From Octopus vulgaris (Eukaryota): a stretch of 64,000 nucleotides of DNA. The translations under genes and the position numbers were made by a program. The stretch covers positions 106,330,001-106,394,000 of the forward strand of contig OX597815.1 of assembly GCA_951406725.2 (NCBI GenBank), read 5' to 3'. Positions 13,326-30,094 of the stretch are shown here, one piece after another; within the stretch, counting starts at the first letter, position 1, and every line of letters begins with the position of its first letter. Below the pieces are notes generated by a model. It saw only the letters and a program-made list of their open reading frames with translations, was not told the origin of the DNA and searched no databases.

Positions 13326-13881
13326 GCCCACAGGGGGTAAACGTAGAGGAGTTAAACAAAGACAAAAAAAGGGATTAAGTCGATTACATCAACCCCAGTG
13401 CATAACTGGTACTTAATAGACCCTAAAAGGATGAAAGGCAAAGTCGACCTCGGCGGAATTTGAACTCAGCATGTAACGGCAGACGAAATACCTATTTCTT
13501 TACTACCCAGAAGGGGACAGACAAAGGGATTAAGTCGATTACATCGACCCCAGTGCTTAGCTGGTACTTAATTTATCGACCCCGAAAGGATGAAAGGCAA
13601 AGTCGACCTCGGCGGAATTTGAACTCAGAACGTAGCGGCAGACGAAATACCTATTTCTTTACTACCCACAAGGGGCTAAACACAGAGAGGACAAACAAGG
13701 ACAGACAAACGGATTAAGTCGATTATATCGACACCAGTCGTAACTGGTACTTATTTAATCGACCCCGAAAGGATGAAAGGCAAAGTCGCCCTCGGCGGAA
13801 TTTGAACTCAGAACGTAACGGCAGACGAAATACGGCTACGCATTTTGCCCGGCGTGCTAACGTTTCTGCCAGCTCGCCGCC
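13326..13881 (-). mobile_element. tRNA-derived SINE with three tandem internal units
   Basis: Three copies of ggattaagtcgatta..cga..ccagt...ggatgaaaggcaaagtcg.cctcggcggaatttgaactcag; head ggcggcgagctggcagaaacgttagc on the minus strand; CpG-rich, so probably young. Confidence 0.85.
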
Positions 13882-14283: not shown

Positions 14284-14307
14284 ATGACGGATGCAGGGTT
14301 CTTTAAG
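14284..14307 (+). CDS. SRRM1: SRRM1 coding exon 1 (MTDAGFFK)
   Basis: ATG at 14284; peptide matches the SRRM1 N-terminus MDAGFFR; donor AAG|gtaaaa at 14308; phase 0 join to exon 2. Confidence 0.9.
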
Positions 14308-17300
14308 GTAAAAAGACTAAAAACTATCTCTTATTCACTAGTCATTTTTCTTATGTCTGCCCTGCTGTGTCCTTTTATGTAGATTGTACGATAATCGGTG
14401 ATTTAAAAACATGCTAACCGAGTACAAAGACTAATCTAAACGTGTGTGTGTCTCTATGTAGGTCAGACACTTTACAATATGGCTGCTCTGTTACCTGTTT
14501 ACCGCTCAAAACTACACTATATTTATATCTATATCACGAACATAATCTTCGCATTTGTGTAATATGCACGTATAAATTTTATTAAAAAAGATAGAGATTT
14601 GAATTTAAAACTTCACTGGAGCTTTACGTACTATGTTGAAATGCTCTGTAATTAAAACATGGTTTTTATCCTCTGATAAAACCTCAATAGGTTTCGCTTT
14701 TTTTTTCCTTTCAGTTCTAGCAAAGCTTTCATTTTTAATTTTGTTCTTGTGGAATGTTATTGAAAGACTAAAGTTTTATGTTTTTATTTTCATTTTCACT
14801 TTTTAGTTATCTAAAAGTATTTTCATATTGAAATACCAAAATAAAATACACTTTGGTGAGAAAAATATTCCTCTAGTTTAGACTTCATGTATAATGTATG
14901 TGTGTATATATAAATATATATATAAGCTGTGTATTTCGTTAAGAGTCCTCATGGCTTAATAAAACGGAGCTTGAGCAAAGGCGTTCCAGCCATAGCCATC
15001 CTCTCTTCATAGAATGTCTAACTACATTATCAGATGTGTCCTTTTTTTTTTAGATTAGTGATTTGAGGTAGATTTGGTTGCTACTTCTAGCAATTTGCGC
15101 GACCACAGCATCTTCAGTCTTGTCATGTTAATGATTTAACCCTTTTGACATAACGAAATGTGACTGTCTACTTACTACATTTTTATAACTTACTGAAAAT
15201 TTATTTGAAAACTTCGATCAATAACCACATAAAAAAATTTTTTTAAGACATTGCAATTGTTGTTTCACGACGAATACATTTCGGACTGTTTTCATTACTA
15301 CATGTGATCATGATTTGAGCAGATTAAGGCAAAATTGTGGGGATGGTAGATGTTGGCTATGCCACTTTACTGTCTCTAAGAAATATCCATCGATTTGAAA
15401 TGCGGAGGACTAACGAAAAAGTGCCAGGATACTTCATAATCACCATTGTCTTCGCTTTATTTTTTAAAATGTTTTACAAGTTTATAATTTATTTTATATT
15501 TTCTTTAAAAAAAAATTTTATTTTTTTTTACTATTTTATTCCTATTACTATGTTTATTTTTATATATAGACGGAGCAGATCTATTATGAAATTTCCAACT
15601 CTGATCATGCTGCATTTCTTTTACATATCTAGAACCACATCTCCCCAGTCCTTTCTTTTTTTAAGACCATATAATGTAATTTTTTAGATGGTTTGGCCTC
15701 GCTTTTCAGCAGGTCGAGCGACCTTTTGAAGCATTTTTTAAAATCTTCTTTTACCTGCTTGCCATCTCAAGTTTCACCACACATATTAAAGATGGTGTAG
15801 TCTTGAATGTACAAGAGGATTGTTAGCTCGTTTTATCTAGTGTGCATTTAGTGCTATTTAATCCAATGTTACCTTAGGTCGATAGCGTGATTAGAGGGAG
15901 ACTGTCGTTCTAGTCTATTAAGTATTGCGTAGATGTACTCTCGATTCGTTTGTATACGACCAACTTACTTCGAGTCATATAACATGCACACATTTGCATT
16001 GTTCTCTGTTTTTCTACCATGTGCTCGTCACTTTTTTCAGACTGCGGTCCTGTGCAACAAACTCCAAGCCTTGTTCCATGTTATGCAATGCGTGGTTTCG
16101 ATTCCCTTTTATTGCACACTCTCATATAAACATGCTTAATGCTCATTAGAACTGCTCGACGGCCATGCATCTTTATTGTCAATCCAGCCCTCTGTATAAA
16201 TCGAATATCCGTGTTTTATAAAAAAAAAAAACTACGCCTAACAAACTGCTTAGTAGAATTTCTTCCGCCTCATTTACGTTCCGGCGTAGTCGACTTTGCC
16301 TTTCATCGTTTCTTTCTCGATAAAATAAGTACCATTTGAGTCAATGAAATGGACTAACCCCCCTCCCACTAAAATATGCTGGCCTTTTGTCAAAATTTGA
16401 AACCATAATTACTATTACTCCTTTAATGGTAGTGGAACGCTATTGGTGCTCCAAAGTAACGAAATGTTTTGATTTGTATTATCATGATTTAGTTTTTCTC
16501 GCTGTCGTAAAGCAAACCCGGCTATGATCAACTAACTTTTTCAAACCGTCACTACATTTGTGGAAGCTTATAGAATTACGTTCCACTCATGTGCTGTAGG
16601 ATTTGTTTAATCGGTTATATACCACGATGTGTGGAGCCAACATAGGAACTATTGCGGAGTCGCTAGCCTGCTAGAAAAGCAACCAAATTACTCCCAAATC
16701 TCATGCCTCCGTCTTCCAAAAAGATACATTGCTTCCCTTCACATCGATGCTGTAATGTTTTCGATAACAGGTTTGTTCGATCAAGGCTGATCGGTTGAAC
16801 AACAGCCTAGTTCGAATGAGAAATTGTCGATCGATACGCCTCCTCCAAAATTAAATTAAATATTCCCTCCTTCGATAACAAAATGGATAATCTTGTGTAT
16901 GTTAGAAATCATTATTTATTATGAGATTCTATACAATTATTAACACTAAATTAATCTCGTACCTTATTTCCGTTTGTATTTGTTGCTAGTTCAGATGGTC
17001 GCTGCTGAAATGCCCAATGCATGCGTCTCCCTCATTTAAGCTAGTCTGGATACAAACAGCTGGTTTTATCTCACTTAATCCTGTGACACACTCTGTGTGG
17101 TAACCTGTAATTGTTTATCCAGTCTTGAGGACGATTTTTTCTTTTGTTTTGGCCCAATAAAATACATATTGAAATCATATTTGTGGAATACAAAGGAATA
17201 CGAGATACTTGCCACATATTGCGTTCACCCTTAATCCACCGTCTTCTATTAAGTTTTTTTTATACTCTAATCTTTAAATAAGTCTTATTAAACTGTAATT

Positions 17301-17861
17301 GTTTAACTCTTCAATGTAATCTTGTTAAATACGCGACTCTACTACTGATTCTCAACCAGCCATAACATCATCGGAAATGTTTACTGAGCAAAAAGTAATT
17401 CAAATATGAAGAAAATGCTTGATTATGAAAAAATATTTTTGTTTCATATTAAGTTTCTAAAATACCTCTTTGTAGTCTCAACATAAGTTTGCAGGCGTTT
17501 GAAAGAAAACTTTCTGGCTTCCATCTTTCTGTGAAGAATTTTTTAAATTTGTATATTGATGAGCCCAAAAAAGAAGCCTCAACGTAGTCATTTGATTTTT
17601 TTAGAAATAACAGCCAAATATTAATCCAAATCATACCATTATCTTTAAAAATTGCTGCAAATACTACGAAAACAAGCTGTGATCATGGCTGGAATGATTT
17701 TTAGTATAGATCTATAAATATATAGGTGTTCTGTAATAGATTCACCATTTGTAAATAGATAAAAATGTCAAGCATTTTGTAAATATTTCATATATATATA
17801 TATATATACACGAATAGGTAAATAAATGGAGTTGAACGAAGAGGTTAATAAAATTCTTTTA

Positions 17862-17941
17862 CTTTCGACATGTTTCAAAGACAACACGGTTTTATTCCAA
17901 AGGAATAAACGGTGTAAGATGCAATCTTCTCATCAGGAAAG
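17862..17941 (-). ncRNA. Minimal type-I hammerhead ribozyme, antisense in SRRM1 intron 1
   Basis: Minus strand: ctttc-CTGATGA-gaaga[internal hairpin]tcttt-GAAAC-at-GTC-gaaag; complete core, 5-bp stem I, palindromic ACATGT stem III. Confidence 0.75.
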
Positions 17942-18001
17942 AAAGAGAATATTGAATTTTCCATGTTAACGGTAAACATAGGATAATTCATTCACCCATT
18001 G

Positions 18002-18035
<34 letters not shown>

Positions 18036-18951
18036 CCAAGAAATATAATAGCTATCCAATATACTGCTGGTAGAATACCCAATTATTAATATACAAGTGT
18101 TTTTTCATTGCATTTAGTTGCTGTTTAGCTTCTGGGTTAACCATGATTGAGTAGACTTTACACTCTAAAGCATTCAAGATGTAACCACTTCTTCCCCGCA
18201 GTGGTGTGCTGTGGTTAACATTTCATTATTCACTGTTTCCTTCTTTATCAGGTGATGGTCGTTTGAAGGAAATTTGGATGCTATTTCTAGCAGATCAAGT
18301 CCTCGGTCACCCATCTGAATTTAGTTTTCTATCTTTGAGATTGCCCACAAATAAAATGTAGTGCATATTTGTTTCAGCGAGTTTGAGCTTGTTTACAACT
18401 TTACTGTTTAACTCTGGTTTCATACAAAGTTCTGTATATTTCACTATTCCTACTTTTAAGTAAAGATTCTAATTTCTGGTTATAAAGGCTTTCAAAAAAT
18501 GCTGCAGACTTAGTGTATAAAATTGAAGCAATATGATGGGCACAGTTGTGGTTGTGTAGTAGGCTGTTCACTTCCCAACTACATGGTTCCAGGTTCAGTT
18601 GCAAGTGTCTTCTACTATAGTTTCAGGCTGCCCAAAGCCTTGTTAGTGGATTTGGTAGACAGAAAATGAAAGAAGTCCATCATGTATGTGTGTGTTTGTC
18701 TCTCAACATTGCATAATAGTTGTAAATGGGCGTCACTGTCATACAAGCAGAATTATTCATTTCCAATATTCTGAGAACATGTCTGGAATCAGGTGAGGGT
18801 TGGTGACGGGAAGGAGATCTGGCTGTAAAAACTCTGATTCATGCATGAGAAAACTGGATGTTAAATGATAATGATGAAATTATCTGTTTTTAATTTTATT
18901 TACCTCAACCATTTTCCTAATAAATAATATGAAATTTTTCTTCACTTGTAG

Positions 18952-19041
18952 GGAACCACTGCAGAGCAGGACAATCGGTTTGCTGATAAAAAGAAAAAAC
19001 TTTTGAAATCAATGAAGTTCGCAGATGGATTGGAGAAAAAG
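18952..19041 (+). CDS. SRRM1: SRRM1 exon 2 (GTTAEQDNRFADKKKKLLKSMKFADGLEKK)
   Basis: Acceptor ttcacttgtag, donor AAG|gtaaat; 90 nt; matches SRRM1 GTSAEQDNRFSNKQKKLLKQLKFAECLEKK. Confidence 0.95.
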
Positions 19042-28640: not shown

Positions 28641-30094
28641 CAAAAACCACACTAATAGCTTAGGAGTGAAATTTAGGATTTACCTGTTATAATAAAAACT
28701 TTTCTCAATTGGTTTGCACACTATGGCAACACCATTGTTATGTTTTCATTATTCTGTGTAACGTCCTGTCTTTTTTTTATTTCAGATTCTCAGTTTTTGA
28801 ATGAACCACGCTAATAGCTTTTGAGTGATAATAGCCCATCTAGACTTTTTTTTTTTTTTTCGGAACATGGAGAGTAATGATACATATTAAGCATACATTG
28901 AGTATATATTGAACAGAAAACCTTGATAATATTATAACATTTATTGACATAATGAATTATTTAGCCACATGACCACCATTTCAGTGGATAACTTCAAAAA
29001 CCCTATTAGTCATGGAATCTGTCCATTACATCCTCTGCTGCAGCTTTGATGGTCGCCCATAGGACATCTTTTAACATAAATTGGTGTCCATCAGCATAAA
29101 CATCTTGTTTAATAATTGTCCAAAGATTTTCAATAGGGTTGAGGTCTGGAAATGCTGGCAACCACACTATCAACCTTACACCTTGTATGCTGTAAGACCC
29201 TAGTAATGTTTGGGTGGTCCTAGCAGAATGGAAAGGAGTGTTGTCATACATAAATATGAGATTCCTTAGAAGTGACAGCGGTATGTCATCTAGCCAGGGA
29301 TCTAAGACCTCCTTCAGGAGATTGCAATGGGTGGCTATGGTCACTTTAACCCTTTCCAGCACCCTGATTGGGCCAACAAGTCTGTCCCCAATGATACCAA
29401 CTGACAACACAACTCCGCTCTGTTGTTGATGTTGTAAACGTTGGTGACGCTTATCTCCAAAATAGGTCCAACCATTAGGTCCATCAAGAGTTGCCTTGGT
29501 TTCATCAGTGAGCTGAACACAACTCCTGTCTAACATTATGATCCTTTGGGCCCATTGAAGCCTCAAACTCCTGTGACAGGGCATTAAAGGAGGCAGTTTC
29601 AGAGGTCCTTGCACAGAAGCCATGGTTCCAAGGATACAATTTCTAGTGGTTTTTGGCACACAAAGAAACCCAGAGGCAGTGAAAATGGCTTTGCTTGTTT
29701 GTCCGGGTTTCCCACATAATCTGCAGCCAATATTCCTTAAATCCCAAGCTGTCACAGTCAGATCGTTTCTTCCTTACAGAAGGGTCCGTCAGGAACCATT
29801 TAACTGTGTCCACATGATGACCTAACTTCTATGCAATGACATGAAGAAAAATGCCTCTAGCACTTTGCATGATGATGACAGACTTCATTGTTAAGTCCTT
29901 TTCTATGACCCATTATTCTTAGGAGGCTCACCCAAAAACTGAAGAATCTGAAATAGAAAAAGGAAAGGATGTTACACTGAATAATGGAAACGCCGATAGT
30001 GTGCAGACTAGCTAGGAAAAGTTTTATCAAAATCAACTCACAGGAAACCAAGAAATCCAATTTCACTCCTAAGCTATTAATGTGGTTCTGGGTG
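28638..30094 (-). mobile_element. Tc1-superfamily DD37E (TRT-like) transposon, decayed, with long TIRs
   Basis: TDETKATLDGPNGW, MYDNTPFH and PDLNPIENLW with 37 residues between the second D and E; ~180-bp imperfect TIRs (ctaatagcttaggagtgaaatt / aatttcactcctaagctattaa); inserted in a CA/TA microsatellite. Confidence 0.88.

What the first reader, a model, noticed from the sequence alone, without database searches (positions are those of the whole stretch)
17809..18003. 195-bp hammerhead-ribozyme cassette inserted in a (TA)n tract, antisense in SRRM1 intron 1
Seen: the minus strand has a complete hammerhead core (CUGAUGA...GAAAC-AU-GUC) closed by stem I CUUUC/GAAAG. Stem II GAAGA/UCUUU carries an extra internal hairpin (uuuauucc-uuu-ggaauaaa), and stem III is the palindrome ACAUGU. 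The unit is bounded on both sides by (TA)n. Known: minimal type-I hammerheads with palindromic stem III typify Penelope pLTRs and metazoan non-LTR retrozymes and can cleave as dimers. Inference: a non-autonomous PLE- or retrozyme-like monomer that targets TA microsatellites; its antisense orientation would spare the SRRM1 pre-mRNA. This is the best preserved ribozyme candidate in the window.
Basis: partly seen in the sequence, partly recalled or inferred. Interest (0 to 1): 0.72.

Follow-up and report, generated by a model that had tools for sequence, protein, structure and literature searches.

The report
Two-ended Penelope insertion with decayed hammerhead
This 195-base piece is a short back-to-back leftover of a protein-coding Penelope-type jumping gene and carries a slightly damaged copy of a predicted self-cutting RNA; every back-to-back copy of its family whose two ends could be read joins two different fixed end points, which likely means that both broken DNA ends start copying the element's RNA.

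Summary
The hammerhead motif is real: the only one in the window, none in 200 shuffles, with compensatory changes in stems I and II across subfamilies. It is not a retrozyme monomer. The unit is a truncated foldback insertion of a ~3.2-kb Penelope-like element (reverse transcriptase plus C-terminal GIY-YIG, Hydra-type; at least 1,822 hammerhead copies). A 139-nt hammerhead arm ending at site A is joined head-to-head to an inverted 53-nt arm ending at site B, 155 nt further along the element. This copy has lost 2 nt of the family's 8-nt stem III palindrome and its G10.1-C11.1 pair; it is likely inert, and antisense sparing of SRRM1 is unsupported. The family is the more interesting part: 52 of 52 classifiable foldbacks, then 17 of 17 in a fresh set, pair one A end with one B end, never AA or BB, and either arm may be the longer. 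This favours twin priming from both DNA ends over the published fold-back model (inferred). The family lacks the Hydra CxCX5C linker yet still sits in (TA)n. Earlier scan notes already report Hydra-type foldbacks in this genome and others.

The parts
17790..17808 (.). (TA)n tract at the site-A end (inferred pre-existing target)
   Evidence: sequence; 69 of 81 A ends run into TA
17810..17948 (-). Arm A: 139 nt of the element's 3' pseudo-LTR in sense orientation, holding the hammerhead and ending at site A (~60 nt past the predicted cut)
   Evidence: 94% identical to L030 copy; family end position
17813..17827 (-). Site-A end motif ATTTATTTACCTATT
   Evidence: sequence; ends of 67 copies listed
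17862..17941 (-). Type-I hammerhead motif: stem I, CUGAUGA, 53-nt stem II with inner hairpin, GAAA, stem III ACAUGU, GUC cut site (17867/17866), stem I 3' strand
   Evidence: covariation across subfamilies; cleavage untested
17870..17877 (-). Derived changes of this copy: C11.1 to U at 17877 (a CpG site) and a 2-nt shortening of stem III
   Evidence: 5 of 129 and 3 of 129 aligned copies; genome counts
17949..17950 (.). Head-to-head junction of the two arms (2 unmatched bases)
17951..18003 (+). Arm B: last 53 nt of the 155-nt tail (5' UTR of the next unit), element-sense on +, ending at site B
   Evidence: 52 of 53 identical to L030 tail in opposite orientation; tail runs on to the ATG in full-length copies
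17986..18000 (+). Site-B end motif ATTCATTCACCCATT, an imperfect direct repeat of the site-A motif in the element; the inversion makes the two look like terminal inverted repeats
   Evidence: sequence; ends of 79 copies listed
18004..18032 (.). (AT)14.5 tract at the site-B end
   Evidence: 82 of 90 B ends run into TA
14308..18951 (+). Host intron between coding exons 1 and 2 of an SRRM1-like gene

Best explanation
The 195 bp are a 5'-truncated, head-to-head insertion of a ~3.2-kb Hydra-type Penelope-like retroelement into a (TA)n tract, likely made by twin priming and likely inert today. Shown: the element's layout (hammerhead-bearing pLTR, 155-nt tail, ORF with RT, Asn-rich linker and GIY-YIG), two fixed 3' end sites A and B, and the strict A+B pairing in foldbacks. 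Inferred: the element's endonuclease cuts both strands of (TA)n. One freed DNA end primes reverse transcription at RNA site A and the other at site B, both preceded by a similar AUUYAUUY motif. The two cDNAs stop at unrelated lengths (here 139 and 53 nt) and are joined by short microhomology and repair. If only one end primes, an ordinary truncated copy ending at A or B results. In the source element the hammerhead would process tandem transcripts as a dimer through its 8-nt palindromic stem III; this intronic copy has since lost 2 nt of it and its G10.1-C11.1 pair.
For: Composite anatomy. Full-length copies with two hammerheads 3176-3182 nt apart around an RT+GIY-YIG ORF. 5'-truncation gradient. 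Ends: A 81, B 90, other 21, read-through 16, edge 2 of 210. Of 67 foldbacks, 52 had both ends classifiable and all were A+B; 38 of 38 after removing hits of the composite query and a duplicate; 19 of 19 from queries blind to the ends (p 2e-6), while unpaired ends from those queries were A 19, B 22. Fresh set of 40 loci: 17 of 17 A+B. In 46 direct junctions the A arm reached further upstream in 23, the B arm in 21, and 2 were symmetric. Fold-back copying of a B-primed strand cannot give the first class, and an A-primed strand cannot give a B arm. 19 of 30 short junctions overlap by 1-7 nt. In vitro a Poseidon PLE cuts and extends both strands and starts at two internal sites bounding the tail (PMC11167929).
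Against: All mechanism is inferred from genomic copies; no biochemistry. 15 of the 67 foldbacks had one end off-class or at a locus edge and were set aside. Later asymmetric deletion in palindromes could mimic unequal arms. In 31 of 52 pairs the B arm runs through site A, so one RNA would have to be read twice or two RNAs used. PMC11167929 saw no difference in start site between strands in vitro. Unpaired ends in the fresh set were skewed (B 17, A 5). L212 may duplicate L151 (same junction), leaving 16 of 16. No intact ORF was found (longest open frame 785 aa). Searches return best-scoring copies only.
Confidence: 0.7

Rival explanations
1. Same element, but the inversion arises by fold-back self-priming: one strand is made from site B, folds back and is copied until the endonuclease resolves it at site A; unequal arms come from later deletions (model of PMC3846280; tail as endonuclease resolution in PMC8557442).
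For: Explains a tail at one end only. The two arms are usually of one subfamily (median 4.8% apart against 10.7% to other copies; 12 of 30 pairs share a rare variant). 10 of 46 junctions are within 56 nt of symmetric.
Against: In 23 of 46 junctions the A arm holds sequence upstream of the B arm's start, by up to 2.5 kb. 21 of 52 pairs, this one included, have B arms confined to the tail. A-ended single copies are about half of all singles from neutral queries, which this model must explain separately.
Confidence: 0.2
2. The 195-bp unit is a non-autonomous retrozyme- or MITE-like monomer that amplifies as such.
For: 18 of the 30 loci have a similar short B+A layout; the ends look like imperfect inverted repeats.
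Against: Their junctions differ from copy to copy, so they are independent truncations picked by the composite query. No tandem arrays. The apparent terminal repeat is the A and B motifs with one arm inverted.
Confidence: 0.04
3. The copy is an active or co-opted ribozyme whose antisense orientation was selected to spare, or to regulate, SRRM1.
For: Core letters CUGAUGA, GAAA and GUC are intact; orientation is antisense.
Against: Private changes weaken it: G-U for G10.1-C11.1; stem III self-duplex -4.6 against -7.0 kcal/mol; the hammerhead fold is 4.5 kcal/mol above the minimum in the unit against 1.6 in two family copies. Single PLE hammerheads did not cleave in vitro (PMC4209133). Orientation of one copy is a coin toss.
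Confidence: 0.06

Closest known systems
Hydra clade of C-terminal EN+ Penelope-like elements, incl. Hydra-1_Obim (Craig et al. 2021, PMC8557442)
   Same: RT then C-terminal GIY-YIG, DKT motif, CxxC..E..N..CxH in the endonuclease, canonical hammerhead in the pLTR, (TA)n targets, 5' truncation, partial tandems and inverted 5' copies; nests among DKT/CxCX5C proteins in a tree.
   Different: A different family from Hydra-1_Obim (other N-terminus and other hammerhead, by eye). No CxCX5C linker (Asn-rich stretch instead); RWL for RWK; unit ~3.2 kb (mostly under 3 kb published); stem II 53 nt against about 10-25 nt in File S2; tail ~155 nt against 30-40 bp.
Poseidon of Anolis carolinensis, PAc (Frangieh et al. 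2024, PMC11167929)
   Same: Two internal start sites that define the tail; AT-rich targets; hammerhead upstream of the start sites.
   Different: There the sites are adjacent and inside the ORF; here they are 155 nt apart in the 5' UTR and carry a repeated motif. No strand-specific use of the two sites was reported there.
Adineta vaga Penelope elements (PMC3846280)
   Same: Tail optionally at the 3' end of one inverted pLTR; Asn-rich inserts between RT and EN; microhomology junctions.
   Different: Qualitative description of few copies, explained by self-priming on an antisense template; 8-10 bp TSDs, not microsatellite targets.
Metazoan non-LTR retrozymes (PMC7229834; bioRxiv 10.64898/2026.07.22.740005)
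   Same: Type-I hammerhead, low GC, link to Penelope pLTRs.
   Different: Retrozymes are non-coding tandem repeats of 150-450 bp with a hammerhead in each unit; this is a single composite piece of a coding element.
Twin priming of LINE-1 (recalled, no call)
   Same: Inverted 5' arm made by a second priming from the other DNA end.
   Different: Here both primings use fixed internal sites, the arms often overlap on the template, and neither is at a poly(A) end.

Membership tests
Type-I hammerhead ribozyme | Core CUGANGA, GAAA, UH with stems I and II | tested here: met
   74 of 129 family copies have all elements intact
Type-I hammerhead ribozyme | Covariation in stems I and II | tested here: met
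   18 rows: 96.3% of cells paired; C-G/U-A in stem I (5 cells), A-U/G-C in stem II (4 cells), each perhaps one event; weak within close subfamilies
Type-I hammerhead ribozyme | Match to an Rfam hammerhead model | tested here: not met
   no hit at gathering score or E <= 10; the long stem II is the likely cause
Type-I hammerhead ribozyme | Self-cleavage at the GUC site | not testable with these tools
   needs in vitro assay
EN+ Penelope-like element | Single ORF with RT and GIY-YIG endonuclease between pLTRs | tested here: met
   every fetched copy is broken; Pfam has no matching model, assignment rests on motifs and homologs
EN+ Penelope-like element | Partial tandems, inverted 5' copies, optional tail, hammerhead in pLTR | tested here: met
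Hydra clade PLE | DKT in place of DKG; C-terminal EN | tested here: met
   SDKT
Hydra clade PLE | CxxC and CxH around the conserved E and N of the endonuclease | tested here: met
   CNICNSE...N...CKH aligns with P0002-P0004
Hydra clade PLE | N-terminal RWK motif | tested here: inconclusive
   RWL here; among relatives RWK 22, RWR 14, other 14
Hydra clade PLE | CxCX5C linker before the endonuclease | tested here: not met
   0 of 36 reading frames (32 distinct loci) have it; 24 of 27 complete relatives do. Filed as a Hydra-derived variant, not a plain member
Hydra clade PLE | Insertion into (TA)n | tested here: met
   151 of 171 clean ends
Hydra clade PLE | Groups with Hydra RTs in a phylogeny | tested here: inconclusive
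   nests among DKT/CxCX5C proteins (SH-aLRT 93-99) but quick tree, long branch, no outgroup and no named Hydra protein in it
Non-LTR retrozyme | Tandem 150-450 bp units, each with a hammerhead | tested here: not met
   one 274-nt pair in 223 loci, otherwise ~3.18 kb spacing or single
Non-LTR retrozyme | Non-coding family | tested here: not met
   the same hammerhead flanks an ORF
Non-LTR retrozyme | Expressed as small circular RNA | not testable with these tools
   only unstranded contigs of guessed RNA runs
Naiad PLE | N-terminal GIY-YIG, DKA, no canonical hammerhead | tested here: not met
   C-terminal EN, DKT, canonical hammerhead

The most novel reading that the evidence does not exclude
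Penelope-like elements make their inverted insertions by obligatory asymmetric twin priming: one ribonucleoprotein cuts both strands of (TA)n and commits one DNA end to RNA site A and the other to site B, both marked by a repeated motif, with no need for the linker zinc finger; the 155-nt spacing in this family makes the rule visible and testable.
Probability: 0.5. Interest if true: 0.7.

Novelty: new variant of a known kind. Interest (0 to 1): 0.43.

Why it matters
The single copy is ordinary transposon debris. The family bears on two points that PMC8557442 leaves open: how Penelope elements form tandem and inverted structures, and what directs them to microsatellites. A strict A+B rule with independent arm lengths gives a clear prediction for the in vitro system that now exists. 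(TA)n targeting without the CxCX5C linker argues that the linker is not required for it. A young subfamily (copies 99-100% identical over 171 nt) makes the family a practical test case. The long stem II also shows a hammerhead form that Rfam missed here.

Tried and rejected
Rfam, gathering and E <= 10: no hammerhead. Pfam gave no RT or GIY-YIG hit; PDB sequence search of the RT gave nothing meaningful. The G-U-rich terminal stem of the unit first looked like RNA-structure evidence or a MITE end; rejected, it is the A and B motifs with one arm inverted. Naiad was my first guess and was rejected on domain order. A model with the B enzyme trailing the A enzyme on one RNA predicts that B arms never reach further; rejected (21 of 46 do; rows L095 and L103 there have unreliable coordinates). 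In one search the count of 7 short stems III includes 4 ACAUGUGU rows; the true number is 3 of 129. No RNA holder was listed; contigs of guessed RNA runs show neither strand, ends nor circles, and no contig bridged the insertion, so presence in other individuals is unknown. A tree with an outgroup of other PLE clades was not made. Intron strand bias was not testable without annotation. Literature searches for a strict A/B rule or twin priming in PLEs and for octopus PLE hammerheads found only the papers cited; the library lacks most subscription papers, and supplements of the bioRxiv paper and of PMC11167929 were not read.

Full report
Observation. A type-I hammerhead descriptor hits once in the window and never in 200 shuffled windows; the predicted cut is between 17867 and 17866. 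Rfam misses it. The host is an SRRM1-like gene on the + strand: coding exon 1 ends at 14307 and exon 2 starts at 18952, exon 2 hits SRRM1 in the PDB, and PWI exons follow. The motif is therefore antisense in the first coding intron. The genome (2.8 Gb, about 30 large contigs) is probably an octopus. This is inferred from its size, a homolog named from Argonauta and earlier scan notes, not established.

What the unit is. The own-genome search scored 40 of 1,995 candidates and gave 58 matches. Many matched in two pieces on opposite strands. Against one natural copy (L030), nt 56-194 of the unit match in sense (94%) and nt 1-53 match 155 nt further on in antisense (52 of 53). [quoted passage not shown] Three loci hold two same-strand hammerheads 3176-3182 nt apart around this ORF. 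In them the 155-nt tail continues to the start codon, so the tail is the 5' UTR of the next unit. No fetched copy has an intact ORF; the longest open frame is 785 aa. A 22-nt family pattern has 1,822 exact matches and its control none. One subfamily is young: the 40 best copies are 99-100% identical over 171 nt.

Clade. The relatives found are 28-41% identical full-length or long proteins, with a few closer fragments. They carry DKT or DKS, RWK or RWR, CxCX5C and CxxC..CxH, the features given for the Hydra clade in PMC8557442 (section 11, passages and supplement Files S1, S2 read). The family nests among them (quick tree of 32 rows, no outgroup; proteins lacking either motif were left out except three, and L170 fell out). 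It is not Hydra-1_Obim. It lacks the CxCX5C linker in 0 of 36 frames (32 loci), which hold an Asn-rich stretch instead, while 24 of 27 complete relatives have the motif. Yet 151 of 171 clean ends run into TA. Asn-rich inserts are known from Adineta Penelope elements (PMC3846280, passages).

The hammerhead. Of 129 aligned copies, 74 keep every element. Between the two main subfamilies none of 15 differences falls in the core. Among 30 chosen copies covariation was weak, with one double change in an outer helix. With 12 rows from divergent subfamilies, 18 rows gave 96.3% pairing and double changes in stem I and stem II, with 0 of 500 shuffles reaching the score and a third double change in distal stem I. 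Relatedness inflates these counts; each may be a single event. Stem II is 53 nt, longer than in the Hydra hammerheads of File S2. The family stem III is the 8-nt palindrome ACAUAUGU (or ACAUGUGU). The window copy has the 6-nt form (45 matches genome-wide, in both subfamilies, so likely repeated slippage) and U for C11.1 (3 of those 45). That the G10.1-C11.1 pair matters for rate is recalled; PMC2837043 (one passage) only calls the positions conserved. The hammerhead fold lies 4.5 kcal/mol above the minimum in the unit, against 1.6 in two family copies and 3.7 in a third. Single PLE hammerheads did not cleave in vitro and dimers did so weakly (PMC4209133, part 1 of 4 and passages). The copy is likely inert, so no sparing of SRRM1 needs to be invoked.

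Two ends, one rule. 3' ends cluster at site A (~60 nt past the cut; 81) and site B (~215 nt; 90), with 21 others, 16 read-throughs and 2 at locus edges. Both are preceded by similar motifs. Among 67 foldbacks, all 52 with two classifiable ends are A+B. This holds for 38 of 38 after removing hits of the composite query and one duplicate, and for 19 of 19 from queries blind to the ends, where unpaired ends were A 19 and B 22. I then took 40 further loci from the top of an endonuclease search (loci not yet held) as a fresh test: 17 of 17 foldbacks were A+B, 16 if L212 duplicates L151; unpaired ends were B 17 and A 5. Three divergent-subfamily loci also scored A+B. Of 55 foldbacks examined, 46 had a direct junction: the A arm reached further upstream in 23, the B arm in 21, and 2 were symmetric. 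Of 30 short junctions, 19 overlap by 1-7 nt.

Mechanism. That the tail is often at one end only is in print (PMC8557442 Fig. 2 legend; PMC3846280), where inversions are put down to self-priming on an antisense template and the tail to endonuclease resolution. Fold-back copying of a B-primed strand can only give an A arm contained in the B arm, which half the junctions contradict unless later deletion is added. Two independent primings on RNA explain the pairing, the independent lengths and the two kinds of single copies. PMC11167929 (parts 1-2 of 4 read) shows a PLE protein cutting and extending both strands, starting at two internal sites, predicted to be a dimer, and not needing hammerhead cleavage; it reports no strand difference in start site. 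Open: why the two ends always choose different sites, and how the B arm passes site A in 31 of 52 cases. These steps are inferred.

Comparison and verdict. It works like the 3' end of a Hydra-type Penelope element; it is not a retrozyme as defined in PMC7229834 (passages) or the 2026 preprint (part 1 of 5). I file it as a new variant: a Hydra-derived family with a long stem II, a 155-nt tail and no linker zinc finger. My searches found no counted A+B rule or twin-priming model for PLEs, within a library that lacks most subscription papers. Earlier scan notes (unchecked) describe Hydra-type foldbacks with long stem II here and in other genomes, and one mentions two fixed end points; a sequence look-up found no note on this hammerhead. 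Interest 0.43: the copy is ordinary, the family-level rule is a testable lead.

Noticed in passing
L194, L200, L201, L202, L204, L207, L215, L218, L221 (about 185-240 nt upstream of the cut): A sub-lineage carries an extra ~140-bp stretch starting with a (TC)n/(CA)n run in the 3' UTR (alignment breaks).
   Followed up: no
alignment A2, columns 5-10 with 136-141: An outer helix (GUUGAG/UUCAAC, GUCGAG/UUCGAC in the young subfamily) encloses the hammerhead and ends just before the site-A motif; one compensatory change. It may position site A.
   Followed up: partly
L182:4335-4700: A second copy sits tail to tail in the (TA)n tract behind an A end, suggesting re-use of the same tract.
   Followed up: no
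G000:C20:23329826-23348385: Seven RT hits of this family within 19 kb on both strands, possibly a duplicated array.
   Followed up: no
L044:1933-2366: The only short same-strand hammerhead tandem seen (274 nt apart).
   Followed up: partly
L007:1499-1549: A B end joined directly to an (ATC)n tract instead of (TA)n.
   Followed up: no
window 18040-18120 and 18256-18300: Two other high-copy repeats right beside the unit in the same intron (depth).
   Followed up: no
window 13361-13675: Two copies of a 159-bp unit resembling a common octopus short repeat (recalled).
   Followed up: no
window 29009-29773, minus strand: A 255-codon open frame with motifs recalled from Tc1/mariner transposases.
   Followed up: no
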